A DNA stretch of 33,057 bases from a virus (IMGVR_UViG_2713896897_000015:1-33057), one strand, 5' to 3'. Counted from the first letter of the stretch, positions 8,266 to 33,057 are shown. Program-made: numbers and translations. Notes: generated by a model from the sequence alone, not told the origin.

Positions 8266-9150
8266 ATGAAATTTTATACTCCATTAAGATACCCCGGCGG
8301 GAAAGGTAAGTTATCTTACTTTTTAAAAGATGTTATTGAAAAAAACTCGTTGAATGATGGAGCATATGCAGAACCTTACGCTGGTGGTGCAGGGGTGGCT
8401 TTAGAATTATTATTGGAAGAGTATGTCCGTAAAATCTATATAAATGATGCAGATTTTGCTGTTTATTCTTTTTGGTCATCTGTTGTTAGTGATACTGATG
8501 AGCTTTGCCGACTTATTAGCCGAGCAAAGATAGATATGGATGAATGGTCTTTTCATCGCTATGTTATTTCGAATCCTTCTGAGTTTACTAAGCTTGAGGT
8601 TGGCTTTGCTGCGTTTTTCTTAAATAGAACAAATCGTTCAGGTATTCTCAAGGCGGGGGTTATAGGTGGGAAATCACAAAATGGAAAATGGAAAATGGAT
8701 GTTCGCTTTAACAGGGCGGATTTAATTTCAAGAATTGAGAAGATAGCAAATTATAATCAAAGAATAGTAGTAACTAATCTGGATGCTTTGGATTTTCTTG
8801 ATGCCTTGAATTTTATGGATAATATGGGAAAGGTGGATAAAAATAAAATTCTTTTGTATTTGGATCCTCCTTACTATATTAAAGGGCAAGGGCTTTACAG
8901 GAATTTTTATGAGCATGATGATCATGTATTGGTTATGAAGAAACTCACAGAAATTAATTTCCCAAATTGGCTTGTTTCTTATGATAATGCTAAGGAAATT
9001 AAAGATATTTATAATGAATTTCCGCAAGTTGAGTATTCATTGCAATATACAGCGCATCTCAAAAAATCTGGAGAGGAAGTGATGATTTTTTCTCCTGAAA
9101 TAATTATTCCTAATACCCTGAAAGGGGTCTCAATGCCAACTTGCGCCTGA
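8266..9150 (+). CDS. Dam-family (D12 class) N6-adenine DNA methyltransferase; cargo gene 2
   Basis: 294-aa ORF with RYPGGKGKL (compare Dam KWAGGK), EPYAGGAGV (compare Dam EPFVGAGSV) and DPPY catalytic motif (LYLDPPYY). AGGGA RBS upstream; 69-bp gap after the ParB-like gene suggests an operon. AT-rich. Confidence 0.9.
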   Translation: MKFYTPLRYPGGKGKLSYFLKDVIEKNSLNDGAYAEPYAGGAGVALELLLEEYVRKIYINDADFAVYSFWSSVVSDTDELCRLISRAKIDMDEWSFHRYVISNPSEFTKLEVGFAAFFLNRTNRSGILKAGVIGGKSQNGKWKMDVRFNRADLISRIEKIANYNQRIVVTNLDALDFLDALNFMDNMGKVDKNKILLYLDPPYYIKGQGLYRNFYEHDDHVLVMKKLTEINFPNWLVSYDNAKEIKDIYNEFPQVEYSLQYTAHLKKSGEEVMIFSPEIIIPNTLKGVSMPTCA

Positions 9151-9485: not shown

Positions 9486-10520
9486 TCAGCCGTTGTCAGT
9501 GTCCAGTGAGTAGTTTTTAAATCGGATGACCTCCTGACCGAGCCAGCCGTTTATCTCGCGGATCCTGTCCTGTAACGGGATAAGCTCATTGCGGACAAAG
9601 ACCTTTGCCACTTTCTCAATATCACCCAGCGACCCGACGTTCTCCGGCTTGCCCCCCATCAACTGAAAGGGGATGCGGTGCGCGTCCAGCAGGTCAGCGG
9701 CGCTGGCTTTTTTGATATTAAAAAAATCGTCCTTCGTTGCCACTTCACTGAGCGGGATAATTTTAATGCCGTCGGCTTTCCCCTGCGGGGCATAGAGAAA
9801 CAGATTTTTAAAGTTATTGCGGCCTTTTGACTTAACCATGTTTTCGCGAAGCATTTCGATATCGTTGCGGTCCTGCACGGCATCGGTGACGTACATGATG
9901 TATCCGGCATGAGCGCCGTTTTCGTAATACTTGCGGCGGAACAGCGTGGCCGACTCATTCAGCCAGGCAGAGTTAAGGGCGCTGAGATATTCCGGCAGGC
10001 CGTACAGCTCCTGATTAATATCAGGCTCCAGCAGATGAAACACGGAGCCGGGCGCGAAAGGTGTCGGCTCGTTGAAGGACGGCACCCACCAGTAAACATC
10101 CTCCTCCACGCCACGACGGGTATATTTTGCCGGTGAGGTTTCCAGTCTGATGACCTTACCGGTGGTGCTGTAACGCTTTTCCAGAAACGCATTACCGAAC
10201 ACCAGAAAATCCAGCACAAAACGGCTGAAATCCTGCTGGGAAAGCCACGGGTGCGGGATAAACGTTGAAGCCAGAATATTACGTTTGACGTAAATCGGTG
10301 AGCTGTGATGCACGGCAGCACGCAGGCTTTTTGCCAGACCGGTAAAGCTGACCGGCGGCTCATACCATCTGCCGTTACTGATGCACTCGACGTAATCCAG
10401 AATGTCACGGCGGTCGAGTACCGGCACCGGCTCACCAAAGGTGAATGCCTCCATTTTCGGGGCGCTGGCGGTCATTGTTTTTGCCGCAGGTTGCGGTGTT
10501 TTCCCTTTTTTCTTGCTCAT
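9486..10520 (-). CDS. Q: Portal protein
   Basis: 344-aa ORF, first gene after cos and transcribed leftward together with P as in P2; start codon overlaps the P stop. Confidence 0.95.
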   Translation of the reverse strand: MSKKKGKTPQPAAKTMTASAPKMEAFTFGEPVPVLDRRDILDYVECISNGRWYEPPVSFTGLAKSLRAAVHHSSPIYVKRNILASTFIPHPWLSQQDFSRFVLDFLVFGNAFLEKRYSTTGKVIRLETSPAKYTRRGVEEDVYWWVPSFNEPTPFAPGSVFHLLEPDINQELYGLPEYLSALNSAWLNESATLFRRKYYENGAHAGYIMYVTDAVQDRNDIEMLRENMVKSKGRNNFKNLFLYAPQGKADGIKIIPLSEVATKDDFFNIKKASAADLLDAHRIPFQLMGGKPENVGSLGDIEKVAKVFVRNELIPLQDRIREINGWLGQEVIRFKNYSLDTDNG

Positions 10521-17791: not shown

Positions 17792-18221
17792 TGCCGTCAC
17801 GGTGCTGAAAACCAGTCCCGAGATGCTGCGGATATTCGTGGATAACGGGAGTATTGCCTCCACACTGGCGACGTCGCTGTCATTTGAAAAGCGTTACACG
17901 CTCAATGTCATTGTGACCGACTTTACCGGTGATTTTGACCTGCTCATCGTGCCGGTGCTGGCGTGGCTGCGGGAAAATCAGCCCGACATCATGACCACCG
18001 ACGAAGGCCAGAAAAAGGGCTTCACGTTTTATGCGGACATCAACAATGACAGCAGCTTTGATATCAGCATCAGCCTGATGCTGACCGAGCGCACGCTGGT
18101 CAGTGAGGTGGACGGCGCGCTGCATGTGAAGAATATCCCGGAACCTCTGCCGCCGGAGCCGGTCACCCGCCCGATGGAGCTGTATATCAATGGCGAACTG
18201 GTGAGCAAGTGGGATGAATGA
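17754..18221 (+). CDS. R: Tail completion protein R
   Basis: 155-aa ORF, P2 R length and position. Confidence 0.9.
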   Translation: MLKPDSLRRALTDAVTVLKTSPEMLRIFVDNGSIASTLATSLSFEKRYTLNVIVTDFTGDFDLLIVPVLAWLRENQPDIMTTDEGQKKGFTFYADINNDSSFDISISLMLTERTLVSEVDGALHVKNIPEPLPPEPVTRPMELYINGELVSKWDE

Positions 18222-18666
18222 GTTTAAGCGTTTTGAAGACCGGCTGACCGGACTGATTGAATCGCTGTCACCGTCAGGGCGTCGGCGACTGAGCACCGAA
18301 CTGGCGAAACGTCTGCGGCAGAGTCAGCAGCGCCGGGTGATGGCACAGAAAGCCCCGGACGGCACACCCTACGCGCCACGCCAGCAGCAGAGCGCCAGAA
18401 AAAAGACCGGTCGTGTTAAGCGAAAAATGTTTGCGAAACTTATCACCAGTCGTTTTTTGCATATCCGCGCCAGCCCGGAACAGGCAGCAATGGAATTTTA
18501 CGGCGGGAAGTCACCGAAAATCGCCAGTGTGCATCAGTTTGGTCTGTCGGAAGAAAACCGGAAAGACGGTAAGAAAATTGATTATCCGGCGCGTCCTCTG
18601 CTCGGCTTTACCGGTGAGGATGTGCAGATGATTGAAGAGATTATTCTGGCTCACCTCGACCGTTAG
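18214..18666 (+). CDS. S: Tail completion protein S
   Basis: 150-aa ORF overlapping the R stop, P2 S length. Confidence 0.9.
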   Translation: MNEFKRFEDRLTGLIESLSPSGRRRLSTELAKRLRQSQQRRVMAQKAPDGTPYAPRQQQSARKKTGRVKRKMFAKLITSRFLHIRASPEQAAMEFYGGKSPKIASVHQFGLSEENRKDGKKIDYPARPLLGFTGEDVQMIEEIILAHLDR

Positions 18667-18732
18667 TTGTGCCATTCCCGACACCTCATCGTCACATTGC
18701 CGCCAGTATGACCCGGCGGCATCCTTCCCGTT

Positions 18733-19368
18733 ATGAACACTCTCGCAAATATTCAGGAACTCGCGCGCGCACTGCGCAACATGATCCGCACCGGCATTAT
18801 CGTCGAAACCGACCTTAACGCCGGTCGCTGCCGTGTGCAGACCGGCGGCATGTGCACCGACTGGCTTCAGTGGTTGACCCATCGCGCCGGACGTTCGCGC
18901 ACATGGTGGGCACCTTCCGTGGGGGAACAGGTGCTGATTCTGGCCGTGGGCGGTGAACTCGACACGGCGTTCGTTCTGCCGGGGATTTATTCCGGCGATA
19001 ACCCCGCGCCGTCTGCGTCGGCGGATGCCCTGCATATCCGTTTCCCTGACGGAGCGGTGATTGAGTATGAACCTGAAACCAGTGCACTCACGGTAAGCGG
19101 AATTAAAACGGCCAGCGTGACGGCTTCTGATTCTGTTACCGCCACGGTGCCGGTGGTCATGGTGAAAGCATCAACCCGCGTCACCCTGGACACACCGGAG
19201 GTGGTCTGCACCAACAGGCTGATTACCGGCACGCTGGAAGTACAGAAGGGCGGGACGATGCGCGGCAACATTGAACACACCGGCGGTGAACTCTCATCAA
19301 ACGGTAAGGTACTGCATACCCATAAACACCCCGGCGACAGTGGCGGCACAACAGGGGGACCTCTATGA
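18733..19368 (+). CDS. V: Baseplate central spike protein V
   Basis: 211-aa ORF, P2 V length, first gene of the baseplate operon after an intergenic gap. Confidence 0.9.
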   Translation: MNTLANIQELARALRNMIRTGIIVETDLNAGRCRVQTGGMCTDWLQWLTHRAGRSRTWWAPSVGEQVLILAVGGELDTAFVLPGIYSGDNPAPSASADALHIRFPDGAVIEYEPETSALTVSGIKTASVTASDSVTATVPVVMVKASTRVTLDTPEVVCTNRLITGTLEVQKGGTMRGNIEHTGGELSSNGKVLHTHKHPGDSGGTTGGPL

Positions 19369-19712
19369 CTGCGCGTTATCTCGGAATGAATCGCAGTGAT
19401 GGCCTGACGGTCACTGACCTTGAGCATATCAGCCAGAGTATCGGCGATATCCTGCGCACACCGGTCGGCTCACGGGTGATGCGTCGTGATTACGGCTCGT
19501 TGCTGGCATCAATGATTGACCAGCCGCAGACCCCGGCGCTTGAGTTGCAGATTAAGGTCGCCTGTTACATGGCGGTGCTGAAATGGGAACCCCGCGTCAC
19601 CCTGTCATCCGTCACCACTGAGCGCAGTTTTGACGGGCGAATGACGGTCACGTTAACCGGCCAGCACAACGACACCGGCCAGCCACTTTCGTTAACCATC
19701 CCTGTGAGTTGA
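19365..19712 (+). CDS. W: Baseplate protein W (gp25-like)
   Basis: 115-aa ORF overlapping the V stop. Confidence 0.9.
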   Translation: MTARYLGMNRSDGLTVTDLEHISQSIGDILRTPVGSRVMRRDYGSLLASMIDQPQTPALELQIKVACYMAVLKWEPRVTLSSVTTERSFDGRMTVTLTGQHNDTGQPLSLTIPVS

Positions 19713-19716
19713 AACC

Positions 19717-20625
19717 ATGCCGATTATCGACCTGAACCAGCTACCCGCACCGGATGTGGTCGAGGAGCTGGACTTTGAAACCATTCTTGCCGAACGCAAG
19801 GCGACACTGATTTCCCTTTACCCGGAAGACCAGCAGGAGGCGGTTGCCCGTACCCTGACGCTGGAATCTGAGCCTCTCGTCAAACTGCTGGAGGAAAATG
19901 CTTATCGTGAGCTTATCTGGCGTCAGCGTGTGAATGAGGCCGCACGGGCGGTGATGCTGGCCTGTGCCGCCGGTAATGACCTTGATGTGATTGGTGCCAA
20001 TTACAACACCACGCGCCTGATTATCACCCCGGCAGATGATTCGACTATCCCGCCGACACCGGCAGTGATGGAGTCTGACACCGATTATCGTCTGCGTATT
20101 CAGCAGGCGTTTGAGGGCTTAAGCGTCGCCGGGTCGGTGGGTGCCTATCAGTATCATGGTCGCAGTGCCGACGGGCGCGTCGCGGATATCTCTGTCACCA
20201 GTCCGTCTCCGGCCTGCGTCACTATCTCTGTGCTGTCACGTGAAAATAACGGTGTCGCATCCGAAGACCTGCTGGCTGTGGTGCGTAACGCCCTTAATGG
20301 CGAGGACGTCAGGCCGGTGGCTGACCGTGTGACCGTGCAGTCTGCCGCCATCGTTGAATACCAGATAAACGCCACGCTTTACCTTTACCCTGGCCCCGAA
20401 AGCGAACCCATTCGCGCTGCCGCCGTGAAAAAACTGGAAGCGTATATCACGGCACAGCACCGGCTGGGGCGCGACATCCGTCTGTCTGCCATTTATGCCG
20501 CTTTGCATGTGGAAGGCGTGCAGCGTGTCGAACTGACTGCACCGCTGGCCGACATCGTGCTCAACAGTACGCAGGCGTCTTTCTGTACCGAATACCGCGT
20601 CGTGACCGGAGGCTCGGATGAGTGA
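19717..20625 (+). CDS. J: Baseplate wedge protein J
   Basis: 302-aa ORF, P2 J length. Confidence 0.9.
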   Translation: MPIIDLNQLPAPDVVEELDFETILAERKATLISLYPEDQQEAVARTLTLESEPLVKLLEENAYRELIWRQRVNEAARAVMLACAAGNDLDVIGANYNTTRLIITPADDSTIPPTPAVMESDTDYRLRIQQAFEGLSVAGSVGAYQYHGRSADGRVADISVTSPSPACVTISVLSRENNGVASEDLLAVVRNALNGEDVRPVADRVTVQSAAIVEYQINATLYLYPGPESEPIRAAAVKKLEAYITAQHRLGRDIRLSAIYAALHVEGVQRVELTAPLADIVLNSTQASFCTEYRVVTGGSDE

Positions 20626-21229
20626 TTCGCGACTGCTGCCGACTGGCTCATCACCGCTTGAAGTTGCCGCCGCAAAAGCCTGTGCGGAAATTGAAAAAAC
20701 GCCGGTCAGTATTCGTGAGCTGTGGAACCCGGATACCTGCCCGGCAAATCTGCTGCCGTGGCTGGCGTGGTCATTTTCGGTTGACCGCTGGGATGATAAG
20801 TGGCCGGAAGCGACAAAACGCGCTGTTATCCGCGATGCGTATTTCATTCACTGCCATAAGGGCACTATAGGCGCAATCCGGCGTGTGGTGGAGCCGCTCG
20901 GCTATCTGATTGAGGTGAGGGAGTGGTGGCAACTCAATGAGGAGCCGGGGACGTTCCGCATCGTTGTTGGCGTGCTTGAGCAGGGTATTACCGAGGAAAT
21001 GTATCAGGAGCTGGAGCGCCTCGTTGCTGATGCAAAACCGGCGAGCCGCCATCTGACGGGACTGGCTATCAGTTTAAGTACAACCGGCAACATTTTTGCC
21101 GGTGCGGGATGCTATCACGGCGACGCCCTGACGGTTTATCCCTACACCCCGGAGGCCATTATTGTCGGAGGGGATTATTTCCCGGCCTCGGCCATTCATT
21201 TAATTGATAACCTGAGAGTAAACGCATGA
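20618..21229 (+). CDS. I: Baseplate protein I
   Basis: 203-aa ORF overlapping the J stop; N-terminus MSDSRLLPTGSSPLEVAAAKA as in P2 I, with a longer C-terminus. Confidence 0.88.
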   Translation: MSDSRLLPTGSSPLEVAAAKACAEIEKTPVSIRELWNPDTCPANLLPWLAWSFSVDRWDDKWPEATKRAVIRDAYFIHCHKGTIGAIRRVVEPLGYLIEVREWWQLNEEPGTFRIVVGVLEQGITEEMYQELERLVADAKPASRHLTGLAISLSTTGNIFAGAGCYHGDALTVYPYTPEAIIVGGDYFPASAIHLIDNLRVNA

Positions 21230-22725
21230 CAGTGAAATACTACGCCATTCTGACTAATCAGGGCGCAGCACGGCTGGCTAACGCGACGATGCTCGGCAGT
21301 AAGCTGAATCTGACGCAAATGGCCGTTGGTGATGCGAATGGTGTCTTGCCGACACCAGACCCGGCACAGACAAAACTGATTAACCAGAAACGCATCGCGC
21401 CGCTGAATCTTCTGAGTGTTGACCCGAACAACCAGAGCCAGATTATTGCGGAGCAAATCATCCCTGAGAACGAGGGCGGATTCTGGATCCGTGAGATTGG
21501 GCTTTATGATGATGAAGGCGTACTCATTGCGGTGGCAAACTGCCCGGAAACGTACAAACCGCAGTTGCAGGAAGGAAGCGGTCGTACCCAGACTATCCGC
21601 ATGATTCTGGTTGTCTCGAATACCGAAGCCATCACGCTGAAAATCGACCCGTCGGTGGTACTGGCGACCCGTAAATACGTGGATGATGAAGTCCTGGAAT
21701 TAAGGCTGTATGTGGATGACCAGATGAGAAACCACATTGCCGCACAGGATCCTCATACCCAGTATGCACAGAAACATAATCCGACATTTACCGGAGAACC
21801 AAAAGCGCCGACGCCTGCCGCAGGAAATAACACCACGCGGATTGCGACTACTGCGTTTGTTCAGGCCGCTATTACCGCTCTGATTAACGGTGCGCCAGCC
21901 ACGCTGGACACACTGAAAGAAATTGCCGCAGCCATTAACAATGACCCGAAATTCAGCACCACCATTAACAATGAGCTGGCACTGAAAGCGCCGCTGTCGA
22001 GTCCCGCACTTACCGGAACGCCAACAGCACCTACTGCGGCACAGTCGGTCAACAATACACAGATTGCCACCACGGCTTTTGTGAAATCAGCAATTGCGGC
22101 AATGGTGGGTTCTGCCCCTGCGGCACTGGATACACTGAATGAACTGGCGGCGGCGCTGGGGAATGACCCTAACTTTTCAACAACAGTGCTTAATGCACTG
22201 GCAGGCAAACAACCGCTGGACAATACGCTTACTAATTTGAGTGGAAAGGATGTTGCTGGTCTTCTCGCATACCTTGGTTTGGGAGAAGGCTCTGCATTAC
22301 CGGTTGGGGTGCCTGTTCCGTGGCCTTCAGCTACGCCGCCAACAGGCTGGCTGAAATGCAATGGCGCTGCCTTTGATAAGGTTAAATATCCCCGTCTTGC
22401 TACAGCATATCCATCAGGGAAACTACCTGATCTCCGCGGTGAGTTTATTCGTGGCTGGGATGACGGGCGCGGTATTGATACAGGGCGTGCTTTATTGAGT
22501 ATTCAGAGTGATGAAGTCAGAAAGCTCGCATTAAAATACTGGGGACCAGCTTCAAACAGTTCACCATCAAAAACATTTGCACTCAGCGACAGTGCCGGTG
22601 GCGGGTTGTACACGGATGGAATAAGTCAGGCAAGTGGTGGGATTATCAACGCTTTTCAGCTCCCTGGCGGTAACGAAACCCGCCCACGAAATGTTGCATT
22701 TAACTATATCGTGAGGGCTGCATAA
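21226..22725 (+). CDS. H: Tail fibre protein H (constant N-terminal part fused to the currently expressed variable C-terminal domain)
   Basis: 499-aa ORF with internal about 75-aa tandem repeats (IATTAFV...LDTLKEIAAA...NDPKFSTT) and a tail-collar-type C-terminus (PVGVPVPWP...GWLKCNG...YPRL...LPDLRGEFIRG). It is shorter than P2 H (669 aa). The inversion crossover site lies inside it at 22262-22287. Confidence 0.9.
   Translation: MTVKYYAILTNQGAARLANATMLGSKLNLTQMAVGDANGVLPTPDPAQTKLINQKRIAPLNLLSVDPNNQSQIIAEQIIPENEGGFWIREIGLYDDEGVLIAVANCPETYKPQLQEGSGRTQTIRMILVVSNTEAITLKIDPSVVLATRKYVDDEVLELRLYVDDQMRNHIAAQDPHTQYAQKHNPTFTGEPKAPTPAAGNNTTRIATTAFVQAAITALINGAPATLDTLKEIAAAINNDPKFSTTINNELALKAPLSSPALTGTPTAPTAAQSVNNTQIATTAFVKSAIAAMVGSAPAALDTLNELAAALGNDPNFSTTVLNALAGKQPLDNTLTNLSGKDVAGLLAYLGLGEGSALPVGVPVPWPSATPPTGWLKCNGAAFDKVKYPRLATAYPSGKLPDLRGEFIRGWDDGRGIDTGRALLSIQSDEVRKLALKYWGPASNSSPSKTFALSDSAGGGLYTDGISQASGGIINAFQLPGGNETRPRNVAFNYIVRAA
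21826..22240 (+). repeat. Intragenic tandem repeat (about 225-nt period, two copies) within H
   Basis: Protein repeats NTTRIATTAFVQAAITALINGAPATLDTLKEIAAAINNDPKFSTTINNELALKAP and NNTQIATTAFVKSAIAAMVGSAPAALDTLNELAAALGNDPNFSTTVLNALAGKQP. Coordinates are approximate. Confidence 0.6.
22262..22287. repeat. Invertase crossover site (gix/hix-like), left, inside H
   Basis: TTCTCGCATACCTTGGTTTGGGAGAA is an inverted copy of the site at 24086-24111 (21 of 26 identical, 14 contiguous). It has the TTC..AAACC/GGTTT..GAA architecture of Gin/Hin/Pin/Cin recombination sites. Confidence 0.7.
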
Positions 22726-23327
22726 TGGATAATGCTGTATTAAATAGCGAGTTTATTGCCACGAAGGCGGGGAATATTACCGTCTATAACTATGATAGTG
22801 AAACACGGGAATATATTTCCACATCAACTGAATATCTTGCTGTCGGCGTCGGTATCCCTGCATGTTCTTGTTTAGATGCTCCTGGCTCACATAAAGCTGG
22901 TTATGCAATTTGCCGTTCTGCAGATTTTAACTCATGGGAATATGTGCCAGACCATCGCGGTGAAATCGTCTATAGCACCGAAACAGGAGAATCAAAAGAA
23001 ATCACAGCTCCGGGTGATTACCCTGAAAAGACAACCACTATCGCCACGTTAACGCCATACGATAAATGGGATGGTGAGAAATGGGTGACGGATACCGAGG
23101 CACAGCATAGCGCCGCAGTAGACGCGGCAGAAGCACAACGTCAGTCACTGATTGATACTGCAATGGCTTCCATCAGTCTGATTCAACTGAAATTGCAGGC
23201 CGGACGTAAACTAACGCAGGCAGAAACAACCCGGCTTAACGCTGTGCTGGATTACATTGACGCGGTGACGGCAACAGATACCGGCACCGCGCCGGATGTC
23301 ATCTGGCCTGAACTGCCGGAGGCGTAG
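22725..23327 (+). CDS. G: Tail fibre assembly chaperone (G; Mu U-like)
   Basis: 200-aa ORF directly after H (TAATG overlap). The C-terminal motif (...LIDTAMASISLIQ...LNAVLDYIDAV...APDVIWPELP) is shared with the convergent minus-strand paralog. Confidence 0.85.
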   Translation: MDNAVLNSEFIATKAGNITVYNYDSETREYISTSTEYLAVGVGIPACSCLDAPGSHKAGYAICRSADFNSWEYVPDHRGEIVYSTETGESKEITAPGDYPEKTTTIATLTPYDKWDGEKWVTDTEAQHSAAVDAAEAQRQSLIDTAMASISLIQLKLQAGRKLTQAETTRLNAVLDYIDAVTATDTGTAPDVIWPELPEA

Positions 23328-23742
23328 GCCATTCATTATCTGGCGCACCGGAAGTATCGACCAGTTCCAGTGCGTCCAGGTAATCCAGCCACAAATTATA
23401 TTGCGCCAGTTCGTCACCTTTCAGACGACCAATAGCTGCTTTGCCAGGCCATTGCTTACTGTTCATATATTCGTTGGCATTATCAATAAGATTTTGCTTT
23501 TGAGCTGTGGCAAGGAGTATTGCTTCTTCAGGAGCCATTGGTGGAATATCAACCCACTCAGGTTGTCCATCATCATTTGCACCGCGCGCTTTCCCTTCAG
23601 GTGGTGTTCCTGAATAAGTCAAAAATATTTCATCAGATACTGGTGTAATATCATCCGGTAAGCTGTCATATGAGCGATATAGCTCCAGCATATCTACCGG
23701 ATAAAAAGCTAACGTCGTCCGTGAAAAATAATAATTACTCAT
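23299..23742 (-). CDS. Alternative tail fibre assembly chaperone (G'), used in the inverted orientation
   Basis: 147-aa minus-strand ORF with a Tfa-type C-terminus (NLIDNANEYMNSKQW...LWLDYLDALELVDTSGAPDNEWP). It converges on G and overlaps its 3' end by 29 nt. Confidence 0.8.
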   Translation of the reverse strand: MSNYYFSRTTLAFYPVDMLELYRSYDSLPDDITPVSDEIFLTYSGTPPEGKARGANDDGQPEWVDIPPMAPEEAILLATAQKQNLIDNANEYMNSKQWPGKAAIGRLKGDELAQYNLWLDYLDALELVDTSGAPDNEWPTPPAVQAR

Positions 23743-23743
23743 A

Positions 23744-24085
23744 TCAGCACCCTATTGCAAACCAGCGAAAATTATAATTGCCACCAGAAGCATCACAGCG
23801 TAGAAGAAATCCTGTCCTGGTCATATTCCCTGCTGCCCCGGCAACAATTTTTCCGCCACCATTATCGTAGGACGTCACCACCTGAAAACATTGCGACGGA
23901 AAAGCGATTGGGAAATTCATCTCATTGCCTGTCGAGCCTACATAACCCGTACCTGCGTCTCCTGCCCCCCATTGGATAATCAATCCTCCCGGTAACTTCT
24001 GATATCCCTTGCTGGCAATGCTGCCAGAAAAAGAACTCATATCCGGTATCTGACCTGAACCTGTTCCTACATTCCGTTTTGCCGC
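23744..24085 (-). CDS. Promoterless alternative tail-fibre C-terminal cassette (Hv'), fused in-frame to H after inversion
   Basis: The minus-strand frame through the 24086-24111 site encodes ...VGLGE-AAKRNVGTGSGQIPDMSSFSGS...NYNFRWFAIGC-stop, in the same codon register as LGLGE at the left site in H. Its stop is 1 nt before the G' start. Confidence 0.7.
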   Translation of the reverse strand, partial: AAKRNVGTGSGQIPDMSSFSGSIASKGYQKLPGGLIIQWGAGDAGTGYVGSTGNEMNFPIAFPSQCFQVVTSYDNGGGKIVAGAAGNMTRTGFLLRCDASGGNYNFRWFAIGC

Positions 24086-24111
24086 TTCTCCCAAACCAAC
24101 GTTTATGAAAA
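24086..24111. repeat. Invertase crossover site (gix/hix-like), right
   Basis: TTCTCCCAAACCAACGTTTATGAAAA, an inverted partner of 22262-22287, lies about 50 bp upstream of the invertase gene. Confidence 0.7.
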
Positions 24112-24160
24112 TGCAGAGATAACGGGCAACTGGCATCATCTCCGGTTTTTATTCAGGGGG

Positions 24161-24760
24161 ATGCTCATGCTTATTGGCTATGTACGCGTGTCAACAAATG
24201 ACCAGAACACGGAATTGCAGCGTAACGCGCTGGAGTGTGCAGGATGTGAGCTGATTTTTGAGGATAAAATCAGCGGCACGAAGTCCGACCGACCGGGACT
24301 GAAAAAACTGCTCAGAACATTATCAGCAGGTGACACTCTGGTGGTCTGGAAGCTGGACAGGCTGGGGCGTAGTATGCGGCATCTGGTCATTCTGGTTGAG
24401 GAGCTGCGCGAACGCGGCGTTAATTTTCGCAGCCTGACGGATGCTATTGATACCAGCACGCCGATGGGGCGCTTTTTCTTTCATGTGATGGGTGCCCTGG
24501 CTGAAATGGAGCGAGAACTCATTGTCGAGCGGACACGCGCCGGACTGGAAGCGGCCAGAGCCAAAGGTCGTATTGGTGGCAGACGACCGAAACTCACCAC
24601 GAGTGAGTGGGAGCAGGTCGGACGGTTGCTGGCTGCGGGGGAATCTCGTCAACGTGTGGCGCTGATTTTTGATATTGGCCTGTCCACGCTCTATAAAAAA
24701 TTCCCCTCATCAGCGACAAAGAATAAATTGTGTCATCCCTTAGCCAACCGGGACAAATAG
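24161..24760 (+). CDS. Serine DNA invertase (Gin/Hin/Pin/Cin family)
   Basis: 199-aa ORF; N-terminal catalytic domain with the GYVRVSTNDQ serine motif and a C-terminal HTH. AGGGGG RBS upstream; an alternative ATG lies at 24167. Confidence 0.93.
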   Translation: MLMLIGYVRVSTNDQNTELQRNALECAGCELIFEDKISGTKSDRPGLKKLLRTLSAGDTLVVWKLDRLGRSMRHLVILVEELRERGVNFRSLTDAIDTSTPMGRFFFHVMGALAEMERELIVERTRAGLEAARAKGRIGGRRPKLTTSEWEQVGRLLAAGESRQRVALIFDIGLSTLYKKFPSSATKNKLCHPLANRDK

Positions 24761-24819
24761 CCTGACATCTCCGGCACAACTGAAAATACCACTCACCCAT
24801 TAACCACGGAGTTAAACGG

Positions 24820-26010
24820 ATGAGTGACTATCATCACGGCGTGCAGGTGCTGGAGATTAACGACGGCACCCGCGTCATTTCCACCGTATCCACTGCCATT
24901 GTCGGCATGGTCTGCACGGCCAGCGATGCGGATGCGGAAACCTTCCCCCTCAATAAACCTGTGCTGATTACCAATGTGCAGAACGCAATTGCAAAGGCCG
25001 GTAAAAAAGGCACGCTGGCGGCATCGTTGCAGGCCATCGCTGACCAGTCAAAACCGGTCACCGTTGTCGTGCGCGTGGAAGACGGCACCGGTGATGACGA
25101 GGAAACGAAACTCGCGCAGACCGTTTCCAATATCATCGGCACCACCGACGAAAACGGTCAGTACACCGGACTGAAAGCCCTGCTGGCGGCGGAGTCGGTA
25201 ACTGGTGTTAAACCGCGTATTCTCGGCGTGCCGGGACTGGACACCAAAGAGGTGGCGGTTGCACTGGCATCAGTCTGTCAGAAGCTGCGCGCTTTCGGGT
25301 ATATCAGCGCATGGGGTTGTAAAACCATTTCCGAGGTGAAAGCCTACCGCCAGAATTTCAGCCAGCGTGAGCTGATGGTCATCTGGCCGGATTTCCTCGC
25401 ATGGGATACGGTCGCCAGTACCACCGCCACCGCGTATGCCACCGCCCGTGCGCTGGGTCTGCGCGCTAAAATTGACCAGGAGCAGGGCTGGCATAAAACG
25501 CTGTCCAACGTCGGGGTGAACGGTGTTACCGGCATCAGCGCGTCCGTATTCTGGGATTTGCAGGAGTCCGGCACCGATGCTGACCTGCTTAACGAGTCAG
25601 GCGTCACAACGCTGATTCGCCGTGACGGTTTCCGCTTCTGGGGTAACCGTACCTGCTCTGATGACCCGCTGTTCCTCTTTGAAAACTACACCCGCACCGC
25701 GCAGGTGCTGGCCGACACGATGGCTGAGGCGCACATGTGGGCGGTGGACAAGCCCATCACCGCAACGCTGATTCGCGACATCATTGACGGCATCAATGCC
25801 AAATTCCGTGAGTTGAAAACAAACGGCTATATCGTGGATGCGACCTGCTGGTTCAGCGAAGAATCCAACGATGCGGAAACCCTCAAGGCCGGAAAACTGT
25901 ATATCGACTACGACTATACACCGGTACCTCCTCTTGAAAACCTGACCCTGCGCCAGCGTATTACCGATAAATACCTGGCAAATCTGGTCACCTCGGTTAA
26001 CAGCAATTAA
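24820..26010 (+). CDS. FI: Contractile tail sheath protein
   Basis: 396-aa ORF, P2 FI length, followed by the tube gene. Confidence 0.95.
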   Translation: MSDYHHGVQVLEINDGTRVISTVSTAIVGMVCTASDADAETFPLNKPVLITNVQNAIAKAGKKGTLAASLQAIADQSKPVTVVVRVEDGTGDDEETKLAQTVSNIIGTTDENGQYTGLKALLAAESVTGVKPRILGVPGLDTKEVAVALASVCQKLRAFGYISAWGCKTISEVKAYRQNFSQRELMVIWPDFLAWDTVASTTATAYATARALGLRAKIDQEQGWHKTLSNVGVNGVTGISASVFWDLQESGTDADLLNESGVTTLIRRDGFRFWGNRTCSDDPLFLFENYTRTAQVLADTMAEAHMWAVDKPITATLIRDIIDGINAKFRELKTNGYIVDATCWFSEESNDAETLKAGKLYIDYDYTPVPPLENLTLRQRITDKYLANLVTSVNSN

Positions 26011-26022
26011 GGAGCCTGACCG

Positions 26023-26541
26023 ATGGCAATGCCGCGCAAACTCAAGTTAATGAACGTCTTTCTGAACGGCTACAGCTATCAGGGCGTCGCGAAGTCCGTC
26101 ACGCTACCAAAACTGACCCGTAAGCTCGAAAACTATCGCGGTGCGGGGATGAACGGCAGCGCACCGGTAGACCTCGGCCTTGATGACGATGCGCTGTCAA
26201 TGGAGTGGTCGCTCGGTGGCTTCCCGGATTCGGTTATCTGGGAGCTTTACGCCGCAACCGGTGTGGATGCCGTACCGATTCGTTTTGCAGGTTCTTACCA
26301 GCGCGACGATACCGGCGAAACGGTGGCCGTCGAGGTGGTCATGCGTGGACGTCAGAAAGAAATCGACACCGGCGAGGGCAAACAGGGAGAAGACACCGAG
26401 TCGAAAATCTCCGTGGTCTGCACCTATTTCCGGCTGACGATGGACGGTAAGGAGCTGGTCGAAATCGACACCATCAACATGATTGAGAAGGTGAACGGCG
26501 TCGACCGGCTGGAGCAACACCGCCGCAATATCGGCCTGTGA
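26023..26541 (+). CDS. FII: Tail tube protein
   Basis: 172-aa ORF, P2 FII length. Confidence 0.95.
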   Translation: MAMPRKLKLMNVFLNGYSYQGVAKSVTLPKLTRKLENYRGAGMNGSAPVDLGLDDDALSMEWSLGGFPDSVIWELYAATGVDAVPIRFAGSYQRDDTGETVAVEVVMRGRQKEIDTGEGKQGEDTESKISVVCTYFRLTMDGKELVEIDTINMIEKVNGVDRLEQHRRNIGL

Positions 26542-31695: not shown

Positions 31696-33057
31696 TTACT
31701 TACCGTGCGGATTACGCGTGGTTTCCCCGGAGAAATTACGCATCAACAGCGCGTAATTCAGCTCAAGATCCTGCGGTACTGGGATCCACACAGTATAACC
31801 ATCGCCAGGTGCGACCGGCATTGCTTCACCTTTGGCGTTTTCCATGTGCTCAAGGGTAAAGTTAATGTTGCCTTGTGGCGTCATCAGCTCAAGGCTGTCG
31901 CCAACGGAGAATTTATTTTTCACCGCTACAGCAGCAAAGTTGCCTTTGCGCTCACCGGTAAACTCACCAACAAACTGCTGGCGATCAGAAACCGAATAAC
32001 CGTATTCGTAGTTCTGATAATCGTCGTGAGTATGGCGACGCAGGAATCCTTCGGTGTAACCACGATGCGCCAGACCTTCCAGCGTTTCCAGCAGGCTGGT
32101 ATCGAACGGTTTGCCCGCCGCCGCATCATCAATCGCTTTACGATAAACCTGCGCGGTACGTGCGCAATAGTAGAAAGATTTGGTACGGCCTTCGATTTTC
32201 AGCGAATGCACGCCCATTTTGGTCAGGCGCTCAACGTGGGCGATGGCGCGCAGATCTTTCGAGTTCATGATGTAAGTGCCGTGTTCATCTTCGAACGCGG
32301 TCATATATTCGCCCGGACGCTGGGCTTCTTCGATCATAAACACTTTATCAGTTGGCGCGCCGATCCCCAGCGTCGGTTCAACGTTTTGCACCGGAATCGG
32401 TTCGTACTTGTGTACGATGTTGCCGACGTCATCTTCTTTGCCTTCCTGTACGTTGTACTCCCAGCGGCAGGCGTTAGTGCAGGTGCCCTGGTTCGGGTCG
32501 CGTTTGTTGATATAGCCAGAGAGCAGGCAGCGACCGGAGTAGGCCATGCACAATGCGCCGTGAACGAAGATCTCAAGCTCCATATCCGGCACCTGATTAC
32601 GGATCTCTTCAATCTCTTCCAGCGACAGCTCGCGAGAGAGGATCACGCGGGTCAGGCCCATTTGCTGCCAGAATTTCACCGTTGCCCAGTTCACGGCGTT
32701 AGCCTGTACTGAGAGGTGGATCGGCATTTCAGGGAAGTGCTCACGCACCAGCATAATCAGCCCCGGATCGGACATAATCAGCGCATCCGGCCCCATTTCC
32801 ACCACCGGTTTCAGGTCACGGATAAAAGTTTTCAGCTTGGCGTTGTGCGGTGCAATATTGACCACGACATAAAACTTTTTCCCCAGAGCGTGTGCTTCAT
32901 TGATGCCGAGCTGGAGATTTTCATGGTTGAATTCATTGTTGCGCACGCGCAGGGAGTAACGCGGCTGGCCCGCATAAACAGCATCTGCGCCATAAGCGAA
33001 AGCGTAACGCATATTTTTTAGCGTTCCCGCCGGGGAAAGGAGTTCCGGTTTAAACAT
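31696..33057 (-). CDS. yegQ: U32-family peptidase-like protein YegQ (TrhP, tRNA hydroxylation protein)
   Basis: 453-aa ORF whose N-terminus MFKPELLSPAGTLKNMRYAFAYGADAVYAGQPRYSLRVRNNEF matches E. coli YegQ from memory. The start codon is the last three bases of the window. G+C and codon usage look chromosomal. Confidence 0.92.
   Translation of the reverse strand: MFKPELLSPAGTLKNMRYAFAYGADAVYAGQPRYSLRVRNNEFNHENLQLGINEAHALGKKFYVVVNIAPHNAKLKTFIRDLKPVVEMGPDALIMSDPGLIMLVREHFPEMPIHLSVQANAVNWATVKFWQQMGLTRVILSRELSLEEIEEIRNQVPDMELEIFVHGALCMAYSGRCLLSGYINKRDPNQGTCTNACRWEYNVQEGKEDDVGNIVHKYEPIPVQNVEPTLGIGAPTDKVFMIEEAQRPGEYMTAFEDEHGTYIMNSKDLRAIAHVERLTKMGVHSLKIEGRTKSFYYCARTAQVYRKAIDDAAAGKPFDTSLLETLEGLAHRGYTEGFLRRHTHDDYQNYEYGYSVSDRQQFVGEFTGERKGNFAAVAVKNKFSVGDSLELMTPQGNINFTLEHMENAKGEAMPVAPGDGYTVWIPVPQDLELNYALLMRNFSGETTRNPHGK

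What the first reader, a model, noticed from the sequence alone, without database searches (positions are those of the whole stretch)
22262..24760. Mu G-segment-like invertible tail-fibre switch inside a P2-type tail operon
Two inverted 26-bp gix/hix-like sites (22262-22287 inside H, 24086-24111) bracket a roughly 1.85-kb segment. It carries the current variable H C-terminus and chaperone G on the plus strand, and on the minus strand a promoterless alternative C-terminus (23744-24085) and chaperone G' (23299-23742). A Gin/Hin/Pin-family serine invertase gene follows at 24161-24760. Both crossover sites encode G-L-G-E in the same codon register, so inversion would make an in-frame alternative fibre. 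P2 itself has a fixed H/G and carries Z/fun at this position, so this is a host-range switching module occupying a known P2 variable locus.
Basis: partly seen in the sequence, partly recalled or inferred. Interest (0 to 1): 0.7.

Follow-up and report, generated by a model that had tools for sequence, protein, structure and literature searches.

The report
Invertible tail-fibre switch in P2-like prophage
A P2-type prophage of E. coli carries a flip-flop DNA segment, turned over by its own Pin/Gin-type invertase, that swaps the tip of the tail fibre and its chaperone; the feature is real and looks intact, but it is a common, already annotated and already described kind of phage host-range switch.

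Summary
Two 26-bp sites in inverted orientation (22262-22287, 24086-24111) share an identical inner 14 nt and the same central TT. They bracket two convergent cassettes, each a tail-fibre tip plus a chaperone. An intact serine invertase gene follows (24167-24760). Inverting the segment in silico gives an in-frame 467-aa alternative fibre.

The invertase has every catalytic and Fis/enhancer-contact residue checked. Its 5' end carries the family's enhancer: two Fis-like sites 48 bp apart, about 98 bp from the crossover site.

Two O157:H7 genomes carry the same prophage with identical crossover sites and a 99.5% identical invertase. Their flanks are 100% identical and the 1.87-kb segment is flipped. 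E. coli AH01 carries this window's own cassette pair in the flipped state.

The closest relative is the e14 Pin/P-segment system of E. coli K-12, not Mu G. The right site is identical to the K-12 site, PinE is 87% identical, and chaperone G is 91% identical to TfaE.

Public records already annotate such invertases in P2-like phages. Inversion in P2-like prophages has been shown experimentally (PMC4272514). The feature is already known and of low interest.

The parts
21226..22261 (+). Constant part of tail-fibre gene H (N-terminal about 345 codons), outside the invertible segment
   Evidence: ORF 21226-22725. Pfam Phage_tail_fib N-terminal domain, residues 1-150, E 1.4e-62. 52% aa identity to P2 H over residues 26-332.
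22262..22287 (+). Left crossover site (pix/gix-like, 26 bp) inside H, with central TT at 22274-22275
   Evidence: Matches 23/26 positions of the left site of the K-12 e14 P segment (CTCTCGAAAACCTTGGTTTGGGAGAA). The alignment breakpoint in flipped genomes falls at 22274-22288.
22276..22725 (+). Currently expressed variable C-terminus of H (149 aa, tail-collar type)
   Evidence: Pfam Collar, E 4e-14. phrog_523 tail collar fiber protein, E 5e-69. 55% identity to the C-terminal part of e14 StfE.
22725..23327 (+). Chaperone G (tail-fibre assembly protein) for the current tip
   Evidence: Pfam Caudo_TAP, E 9e-31. 91% identity to K-12 TfaE over 200 aa.
23299..23742 (-). Alternative chaperone G', silent in this orientation; it converges on G and overlaps it by 29 nt
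   Evidence: Pfam Caudo_TAP, E 9e-27. Its C-terminal 70 aa are 76% identical to K-12 TfaP.
23744..24097 (-). Alternative variable C-terminus of H (117 aa, gp53-like), with no start codon of its own inside the segment
   Evidence: Pfam Gp53-like_C, E 3e-20. 38% identity to the StfP C-terminus. Fuses in frame to the constant part of H after in-silico inversion. That fusion exists as a 467-aa annotated protein in E. coli AH01.
24086..24111 (-). Right crossover site (26 bp), with central dinucleotide at 24098-24099
   Evidence: Identical to the site next to pinE in K-12 e14 and in E. coli 3359.
24167..24760 (+). Serine DNA invertase (197 aa; an in-frame ATG two codons upstream at 24161 is the alternative start)
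   Evidence: Pfam Resolvase (E 3e-52) plus HTH_7. Mu Gin structure 3UJ3, E 1e-93. Identities: 86.7% to K-12 PinE, 79% to Mu Gin, 78.5% to P1 Cin. RefSeq annotates the 594-nt version in near-identical prophages.
24185..24256 (.). Recombinational enhancer equivalent (nt 19-90 of the invertase gene), with two Fis-like 15-mers at 24189-24203 and 24237-24251
   Evidence: Corresponds to the annotated 'enhancer of Cin-mediated C-segment inversion' in P1, nt 19-90 of cin. 57/72 nt are identical to it. The two Fis-like 15-mers are 48 bp apart centre to centre and lie 97.5 and 145.5 bp from the crossover centre. They are conserved in pinE, gin and cin.
24728..24819 (+). P2-type late promoter pF region (Ogr activator site and leader of FI). 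It overlaps the last 11 codons of the invertase and marks the right edge of the replaced module.
   Evidence: Alignment with the annotated P2 pF activator-binding site and transcription start. blastn homology to P2 resumes at 24740.

Best explanation
This is a two-state, Pin/Gin-type site-specific inversion switch for the tail-fibre tip of a complete P2-like (Peduovirus) prophage.

The invertase (24167-24760) is expected to bind as dimers to the two 26-bp sites. It would be activated by host Fis bound to the enhancer inside its own 5' coding region. It would cut both sites at the central TT and exchange strands by subunit rotation, flipping the 1824 bp between the crossover centres.

H is transcribed from the late V-operon promoter, upstream of and outside the segment. 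Only the cassette lying on the + strand is therefore joined in frame to the constant 349 codons of H and co-expressed with its cognate chaperone.
- Present orientation: a 499-aa collar-type fibre plus the 200-aa chaperone G.
- Flipped orientation: a 467-aa gp53-like-tipped fibre plus the 147-aa chaperone G'.

A lysogen population would thus release two virion types with different receptor specificities, which is bet-hedging on host range.

Shown here:
- the anatomy of the module
- the in-frame fusion after inversion
- intact catalytic and Fis-contact residues
- conservation of the enhancer
- natural inversion of the same module between otherwise identical prophages

Inferred from the family:
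- dependence on Fis
- the chemistry of strand exchange
- that the two tips recognise different receptors
For: Sites and the in-frame fusion.

Domain content of all five genes.

Invertase:
- Aligns ungapped over residues 1-182 with Mu Gin (PDB 3UJ3 and 4M6F, E 1e-93 and 3e-92).
- Has Ser9 in the GYVRVSTNDQ motif, Arg8, the DRLGR motif and wild-type Met114.
- The residues that PMC3798978 reports as uniquely conserved in Fis/enhancer-dependent invertases are present. Hin K47, K/R48 and K/R51 correspond to K46, K47 and R50 here. Hin Q151, R154 and L155 correspond to Q150, R153 and L154 here (sequence; Hin numbering offset).

Enhancer:
- The region equivalent to the annotated P1 cin enhancer is 57/72 identical to it.
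- It contains two Fis-like 15-mers exactly 48 bp apart. Such pairs occur at only 4 of 32,995 positions in the window.
- The proximal 15-mer is 97.5 bp from the crossover. In Hin this distance is about 100 bp.

Natural inversion:
- O157:H7 strains ECP19-2498 and FRIK944 have flanks that are 100.000% identical (4214 and 2214 nt). The 1866 nt between the same two sites is inverted.
- Their invertase is 196/197 identical to the window's.
- E. coli AH01 is collinear with the in-silico flipped window at 97%.
- Both junction types occur at 100% identity in several genomes each.

Experiment by others: whole-genome sequencing and PCR found both orientations coexisting in P2-like prophages of EPEC E2348/69 (PMC4272514).
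Against: - No read-level or experimental data exist for this particular element. Activity is inferred from near-identical relatives.
- The two outer half-sites differ at 5 of 12 positions. This is normal for the family, but binding was not measured.
- No sigma-70-like promoter for the invertase was found between 24112 and 24166 by the simple scan.
- The enhancer lies in coding sequence, so part of its conservation is explained by protein conservation alone.
- The receptor specificities of the two tips are unknown.
Confidence: 0.9

Rival explanations
1. Frozen relic. The module has the right architecture, but in this particular prophage it no longer flips, because of weak invertase expression or subtle site or enhancer changes. 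The fibre is in effect fixed in the collar-type state.
For: No promoter-like site was found directly upstream of the invertase. A close relative, phage record KC618326 from strain T22, has a frameshifted and truncated invertase, so decay does happen in this lineage. The current orientation is the more frequent one at 80% or more junction coverage: 308-320 genomes against 3-40.
Against: The invertase ORF is full length and differs by 1 of 197 residues from that of a prophage seen in both orientations. The crossover sites are identical to the sites of that prophage. All catalytic and Fis-contact residues and the enhancer are intact. Din-family invertases present elsewhere in the cell could also act in trans.
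Confidence: 0.07
2. The switch mainly serves the lysogen rather than the phage. Inversion would produce a tail-fibre-derived protein that blocks adsorption of other phages, as reported for PinQ-driven inversion of the e14 P segment, where the product StfE2 blocks T2.
For: The module is homologous to the e14 P segment: identical right site, G 91% identical to TfaE, invertase 87% identical to PinE. PMC12529663 reports that inversion of the 1797-bp e14 P segment yields StfE2, which inhibits T2 adsorption.
Against: Here the segment sits in an apparently complete P2-like prophage. Integrase, replication, capsid, lysis, baseplate, sheath, tube and tape-measure genes are 95-98% identical to active P2-like phages. 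H is part of a late operon that in P2 depends on Ogr, and so is not expected to be expressed in a quiescent lysogen. Both alternative products are full-length fibres, each with its own chaperone.
Confidence: 0.03
3. The inverted repeat is only a conserved coding motif (LGLGE) shared by two tail-fibre cassettes. Any inversion would then occur by general homologous recombination, and the neighbouring recombinase would be unrelated cargo.
For: Exact 14-nt inverted repeats are not extremely rare in this window. The repeat lies in coding sequence on both strands.
Against: Fourteen identical nucleotides are too few for efficient RecA-dependent recombination (established knowledge). The sites have the 12-2-12 layout, and the right one is identical to the e14 pix site next to pinE. 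Natural breakpoints fall exactly within the sites. The adjacent gene is a Gin/Pin orthologue with its enhancer.
Confidence: 0.01

Closest known systems
Pin / P-segment inversion system of cryptic prophage e14, E. coli K-12 (pinE, stfE, tfaE, tfaP, stfP/ycfK)
   Same: The layout is the same: fibre constant part, site, two convergent tip-plus-chaperone cassettes, site, invertase. The right crossover site is identical (TTCTCCCAAACCAACGTTTATGAAAA) and the left site matches at 23/26. Site-to-site spacing is 1824 bp here and 1827 bp in K-12. Identities: invertase 86.7% to PinE, G 91% to TfaE, C-terminal half of G' 76% to TfaP, and the two tips 55% and 38% to the StfE and StfP C-termini.
   Different: e14 is a defective lambdoid remnant with a decayed fibre gene (stfE is annotated as a pseudogene). 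Here the module is attached to a P2-type H gene in an apparently complete prophage. The invertase has a 13-residue longer C-terminal tail that runs into the P2 pF promoter. The tip domains have diverged.
Annotated P2-like (Peduovirus) phages and prophages with the same module: 'Escherichia phage P2' KC618326 (O157:H43 T22), pro483, Salmonella phage MET_P1_103_31, O157:H7 prophages
   Same: The gene order I-H-G-G'-tip'-invertase-FI is the same, with 96-97% nucleotide identity over the flanks and shared cassettes. The invertase is annotated as 'DNA invertase', 'hin' or 'recombinase family protein'. pro483, AH01 and FRIK944 are deposited in the flipped state.
   Different: The alternative tip cassette varies between records: window 23478-24038 has no match in the T22 and O157:H7 versions. 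The T22 invertase is frameshifted.
Mu G segment with Gin, P1 C segment with Cin, and Salmonella Hin (the Din family of Fis/enhancer-dependent serine invertases)
   Same: The mechanism class is the same: 26-bp sites, an enhancer in the 5' end of the invertase gene, and tail-fibre tip-plus-chaperone cassettes (Mu and P1). The invertase is 79% identical to Gin and 78.5% to Cin. The enhancer is 55/72 identical to gin and 57/72 to cin.
   Different: blastp finds no similarity between these cassettes and Mu S, U, S' or U' at E 1e-3. The sites match gix and hix, as recalled from memory, at only 14-18 of 26 positions. In P1, cin lies on the other side of its segment, next to cixL. Hin controls a promoter, not a fibre.
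Classical phage P2 (NC_001895)
   Same: Backbone genes V, W, J and most of I are 95% identical at the nucleotide level. The pF promoter and FI are 98% identical.
   Different: P2 has a fixed 669-aa H and a 175-aa G, a V-operon terminator and fun(Z) between G and FI. It has no invertase and no inverted cassettes.

Membership tests
Din family of Fis/enhancer-dependent serine DNA invertases (Gin, Cin, Pin, Hin) | Small serine recombinase: N-terminal resolvase catalytic domain plus C-terminal helix-turn-helix | tested here: met
   Pfam Resolvase, E 2.8e-52, residues 5-137; HTH_7, E 4.8e-13, residues 140-183. Full-length ungapped match to Gin structures 3UJ3 and 4M6F, E 1e-93.
Din family of Fis/enhancer-dependent serine DNA invertases (Gin, Cin, Pin, Hin) | Catalytic serine (Gin Ser9) and the conserved Arg/Asp active-site residues are intact | tested here: met
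   MLIGYVRVSTNDQ contains Arg8 and Ser9, and the WKLDRLGRS motif is present. Both are identical to Gin in the alignment.
Din family of Fis/enhancer-dependent serine DNA invertases (Gin, Cin, Pin, Hin) | Residues uniquely conserved in Fis/enhancer-dependent invertases: basic helix-B residues (Hin 47, 48, 51) and helix 1 of the DNA-binding domain (Hin Q151, R154, L155) | tested here: met
   The criterion comes from PMC3798978. The window protein has K46, K47, R50 and Q150, R153, L154 (window numbering = Hin numbering minus 1, from the 1HCR match; sequence).
Din family of Fis/enhancer-dependent serine DNA invertases (Gin, Cin, Pin, Hin) | Two 26-bp imperfectly palindromic crossover sites in inverted orientation with matching central dinucleotides | tested here: met
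   The sites are at 22262-22287 and 24086-24111, with a 12-2-12 layout, central TT in both and 21/26 identity. The right site is identical to the K-12 e14 site.
Din family of Fis/enhancer-dependent serine DNA invertases (Gin, Cin, Pin, Hin) | Recombinational enhancer with two Fis sites 48 bp apart, in cis, in the 5' part of the invertase gene | tested here: met
   Region 24185-24256 corresponds to the annotated P1 cin enhancer. Fis-like 15-mers lie at 24189-24203 and 24237-24251, 48 bp apart and conserved in pinE, gin and cin. Such a pair occurs at 4 of 32,995 positions in the window. The Fis consensus and the 48-bp rule were recalled from the literature. Fis binding itself was not tested.
Din family of Fis/enhancer-dependent serine DNA invertases (Gin, Cin, Pin, Hin) | The segment actually inverts | tested here: inconclusive
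   Not testable for this very DNA molecule, because no reads are available. It is met for near-identical relatives. L004 and L008 have 100% identical flanks and an inverted segment with the same sites. AH01 holds the flipped state of this cassette pair. Inversion has been shown experimentally in P2-like prophages of EPEC (PMC4272514).
e14-type P segment (Pin system) specifically | Sites and cassettes are homologous to pix, tfaE, tfaP, stfE and stfP | tested here: met
   Right site 26/26, left site 23/26, G to TfaE 91%, G' to TfaP 76% (C-terminal 70 aa), current tip to StfE 55%, alternative tip to StfP 38%, invertase to PinE 86.7%.
Mu G segment specifically | Cassettes are homologous to Mu S/U and S'/U' | tested here: not met
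   blastp of both tips and both chaperones against Mu S, U, U' and the S' C-terminus gave no hit at E 1e-3. Only the invertase matches. The module works like the G segment but is not a copy of it.
P2-like phage (Peduovirus) tail operon | P2 gene order V-W-J-I-H-G ... FI-FII-E-T-U-D, with the late promoter pF upstream of FI | tested here: met
   95% nucleotide identity to P2 across V to I. The pF region and FI are 98% identical. Pfam hits are Tail_P2_I and sheath domains. The best whole-window matches are Peduovirus records.

The most novel reading that the evidence does not exclude
The most novel reading not excluded has two parts.

1. Cross-talk between prophages. The right crossover site is identical to the e14 pix site, and Din invertases are known to substitute for one another. 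The invertase of this intact P2-like prophage could therefore act in trans on e14-type P segments and on other prophage fibre switches in the same cell, and they on it. That would link it to the recently reported recombinase-activated anti-phage effect of P-segment inversion (PinQ/StfE2, PMC12529663).

2. Coupling to late transcription. The last 11 codons and the stop codon of the invertase lie inside the Ogr-dependent pF promoter. Translation or read-through of the invertase gene and activation of the late tail operon could interfere with each other, tying switching to the lytic programme.
Probability: 0.12. Interest if true: 0.35.

Novelty: already known. Interest (0 to 1): 0.1.

Why it matters
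As a discovery it matters little. Invertible tail-fibre cassettes driven by Gin/Cin/Pin-type invertases have been textbook material since the 1980s. This version is annotated in P2-like phage records and in hundreds of E. coli genomes.

It has practical value in three ways:
- It is a clean positive control, showing that a reader can recognise a site-specific inversion switch from raw sequence.
- It warns annotators that the 'gp53-like domain-containing protein' and 'phage tail protein' fragments called next to such invertases are promoterless alternative fibre tips, not independent genes.
- It is a reminder that host range predicted from one assembly of a P2-like prophage covers only one of two states.

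Tried and rejected
- NCBIfam gave no specific family for the fibre, tips or chaperones. For the invertase it gave only sub-threshold hits to other serine recombinases.
- A search for a third crossover site, which would make the module a shufflon like one EPEC P2-like prophage, found none.
- My first Fis-motif scan pointed to 15-mers centred at gene positions 101 and 138/151. I rejected these when the P1 record placed the cin enhancer at nt 19-90. The pair at positions 30 and 78, with exact 48-bp spacing, was then identified.
- blastp of the cassettes against Mu S/U/S'/U' and against the P2 H C-terminus and G found nothing. The 'Mu G-segment' label is therefore an analogy, not homology.
- The simple promoter scan found no invertase promoter. 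A weak terminator-like hairpin at 24128-24147 was not pursued.
- A perfect 17-nt inverted repeat between H (21653) and FI (25410) looked improbable. Its FI arm is absent from all related loci, so I treated it as chance.
- Two look-ups by PMC id, for a DNA-inversion review and for the Fels-2 Fin study, failed because the papers are not held.
- A literature search for the cdt-V P2-like prophage paper found nothing on the invertase.
- I did not locate the E2348/69 prophages in the genome collection, so their sites were not compared directly.

Full report
**1. The observation**

The region was read directly and its ORFs listed.
- H: 21226-22725 (+), 499 aa.
- G: 22725-23327 (+), 200 aa.
- G': 23299-23742 (-), 147 aa. 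It converges on G and overlaps it by 29 nt.
- Alternative tip: a minus-strand ORF ending at 23744.
- Recombinase: an ORF from 24161 (or 24167) to 24760 (+).

The repeat finder reports the longest inverted repeat of the region at 22262-22288 / 24085-24111: 27 nt, 81% complementary, 1796 nt between the arms.

Written as 26-bp sites, the left site is TTCTCGCATACC-TT-GGTTTGGGAGAA. The reverse complement of the right site is TTTTCATAAACG-TT-GGTTTGGGAGAA. They match at 21/26 positions. The inner half-site and the central TT are identical.

The 14-mer TTGGTTTGGGAGAA occurs only at these two places in the 33-kb window, even with 2 mismatches allowed. The chance expectation is 0.22. The module therefore has two sites, not three.

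Exact 14-nt inverted repeats alone are not very rare here. The case rests on the context described below.

**2. Content of the segment**

Pfam assignments:
- H: P2-type fibre N-terminal domain plus a Collar domain in the variable part.
- Both small genes: Caudo_TAP, the tail-fibre assembly chaperone family.
- Minus-strand tip: Gp53-like_C.
- Last gene: Resolvase plus HTH_7.

PHROGs agrees.

Both sites encode G-L-G-E in the same register (xxT GGT TTG GGA GAA). Inverting 22275-24098 in silico joins the constant 349 codons of H to the minus-strand tip without a stop. The product is a 467-aa protein.

The ATG of the mechanical ORF 23744-24139 lies beyond the crossover site. The alternative tip therefore has no start codon of its own inside the segment.

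**3. The invertase**

The protein aligns without gaps over residues 1-182 with the two solved Mu Gin structures (E 1e-93 and 3e-92). Identities are:
- 79% to Mu Gin
- 78.5% to P1 Cin
- 86.7% to K-12 PinE

Ser9, Arg8 and the DRLGR motif are present.

PMC3798978 names two groups of residues as uniquely conserved in Fis/enhancer-dependent invertases. One is the basic helix-B residues, Hin 47, 48 and 51. The other is Hin Q151, R154 and L155. The window protein has K46, K47, R50 and Q150, R153, L154, with numbering one lower than Hin.

RefSeq uses the second ATG (594 nt) in near-identical prophages. This matches the Gin and Pin start.

**4. The enhancer**

The P1 record annotates the 'enhancer of Cin-mediated C-segment inversion' at nt 19-90 of cin. 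The equivalent window stretch is 24185-24256. It is 57/72 identical to cin, 55/72 to gin and 62/72 to pinE.

It contains two Fis-consensus-like 15-mers at 24189-24203 and 24237-24251. Their centres are exactly 48 bp apart, and all four genes conserve them. A pair of this kind occurs at only 4 of 32,995 positions in the window.

The proximal one lies 97.5 bp from the crossover centre. PMC3798978 gives about 100 bp for Hin.

The Fis consensus and the 48-bp rule are recalled from the literature. Because the enhancer is coding sequence, part of its conservation comes from protein conservation. Fis binding is inferred, not shown.

**5. Does it flip?**

Direct evidence for this molecule is not available. 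Comparative evidence is strong.
- E. coli AH01 (NZ_CP055251) carries the same cassette pair in the other orientation. There the 467-aa fusion is annotated as the tail protein.
- AH01 is collinear with the in-silico flipped window from 18075 to 23698 (97.0%) and from 23867 to 26426 (95.9%). Against the window as given, the alignment breaks at 22274-22288 and 24085-24102, exactly at the sites.
- Two O157:H7 genomes, ECP19-2498 and FRIK944, are more telling. Their flanks are 100.000% identical (4214 and 2214 nt, no mismatch). The 1866 nt between the sites is inverted.
- The crossover sites of these two genomes are identical to the window's. Their invertase differs from the window's at 1 of 197 residues.
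- Each junction type is found at 100% identity and full coverage in several genomes.
- Phage pro483 is also deposited in the flipped state.

**6. What it is related to**

The module is homologous to the P segment of the cryptic prophage e14 of E. coli K-12.

| Feature | Match to K-12 e14 |
|---|---|
| Right site | 26/26 |
| Left site | 23/26 |
| Site-to-site spacing | 1824 bp here, 1827 bp in K-12 |
| G vs TfaE | 91% |
| G' vs TfaP (C-terminal 70 aa) | 76% |
| Current tip vs StfE C-terminus | 55% |
| Alternative tip vs StfP C-terminus | 38% |

The cassettes show no blastp similarity to Mu S, U, S' or U'. 'Mu G-segment-like' describes the mechanism; the lineage is Pin/e14.

**7. Relation to P2**

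P2 has fun(Z) on the minus strand between G and FI, a V-operon terminator, and the Ogr-activated pF promoter.

Nucleotide homology to P2 (95%) ends at window 21054, inside gene I. It resumes at 24740 by blastn, or at about 24728 in the multiple alignment.

The replaced block is therefore the C-terminus of I, H, G and Z/fun. It is not an insertion at Z/fun alone.

The last 11 codons and the stop codon of the invertase lie in sequence homologous to the pF activator-binding site.

**8. How common and how well known**

- Sixty-eight phage records match the region. They include P2-like phages of Escherichia, Klebsiella, Salmonella and Yersinia whose invertase is annotated.
- 115 phage records encode a homologous invertase at E 1e-40 or better.
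- In 5,426 complete E. coli genomes, 2,344 have a match to the site plus invertase. In 510 records the best match is 95-99% identical.
- Goldberg et al. (PMC4272514) detected coexisting orientations in two P2-like prophages of EPEC E2348/69 by whole-genome sequencing and PCR. One was a simple two-repeat switch and the other a three-repeat shufflon. They attributed the inversions to hin homologues that alternate tail-fibre structures.

The finding is an already known kind, and this specific version is already annotated.

**9. Rivals**

- An inactive relic is possible. A relative has a frameshifted invertase, and no promoter was detected. It is unlikely, given the near-identity to a module seen in both states.
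- A host-defence role like PinQ/StfE2 (PMC12529663) cannot be excluded. It is not favoured, because the prophage is complete and H is a late gene.
- A chance repeat with RecA-dependent inversion is contradicted by the site structure, the exact breakpoints and the dedicated enzyme.

**10. Verdict**

The feature is already known. Interest is 0.1.

Noticed in passing
window 6622-9150 (+): Two cargo genes sit in the P2 old/tin hotspot, between replication gene A (4007-6334) and portal gene Q (9486-10520, minus strand). One encodes 524 aa with no Pfam hit; the other encodes a 294-aa D12-class N6-adenine methyltransferase. They match the PD-Lambda-5 anti-phage system, components A and B (PADLOC E 9e-168 and 8e-122).
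   Followed up: partly
window 24728-24760: The last 11 codons and the stop codon of the invertase are encoded by sequence homologous to the Ogr activator-binding site of the P2 late promoter pF. The C-terminal tail of the invertase (residues 183-197) has no counterpart in Gin or Pin. The gene physically overlaps the control region of the FI tail operon.
   Followed up: partly
window 21054: Nucleotide homology to P2 (95%) stops inside baseplate/fibre-attachment gene I, not at the start of H. The exchanged module therefore includes the C-terminus of I together with H.
   Followed up: no
L001 (KC618326, 'Escherichia phage P2' from O157:H43 T22) 5495-5989: In this deposited phage genome the invertase is annotated at 495 nt and diverges after about residue 129, consistent with a frameshift. 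Its switch may be locked, or the record may contain a sequencing error.
   Followed up: partly
L008 (E. coli O157:H7 FRIK944) 3152-4573: PGAP annotates the flipped-state fibre as a partial pseudogene plus a separate 'gp53-like domain-containing protein'. Translated from L008 position 3152, the sequence reads through as one ORF without a stop, from the H start to the end of the gp53-like tip. This is an annotation artefact typical of these switches.
   Followed up: partly
window 21653-21669 and 25410-25426: A perfect 17-nt inverted repeat links H and the sheath gene FI. About 0.13 such pairs are expected per shuffled window. The FI arm is absent from all five related loci examined, so it is probably coincidental.
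   Followed up: partly
window 23246-23263 and 23372-23389: An 18-nt inverted repeat (89%) lies around the overlapping 3' ends of the two convergent chaperone genes. It reflects the conserved LDYID/LDYLD C-terminal motif encoded on opposite strands.
   Followed up: no
window 24128-24147: A weak terminator-like hairpin followed by TTTTTATT lies between the right crossover site and the invertase start. It may end read-through from the V operon or modulate invertase expression.
   Followed up: no
window 477-1490 (-) and 31696-33057 (-): The window spans an entire prophage. A phage integrase gene lies at the left end, and a host-type Peptidase U32 gene runs off the right end.
   Followed up: no
window 23478-24038: The central part of the alternative tip cassette has no match in the T22 and O157:H7 versions of the module, while the flanking chaperone and crossover site do match. 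Tips are exchanged independently within the switch.
   Followed up: no
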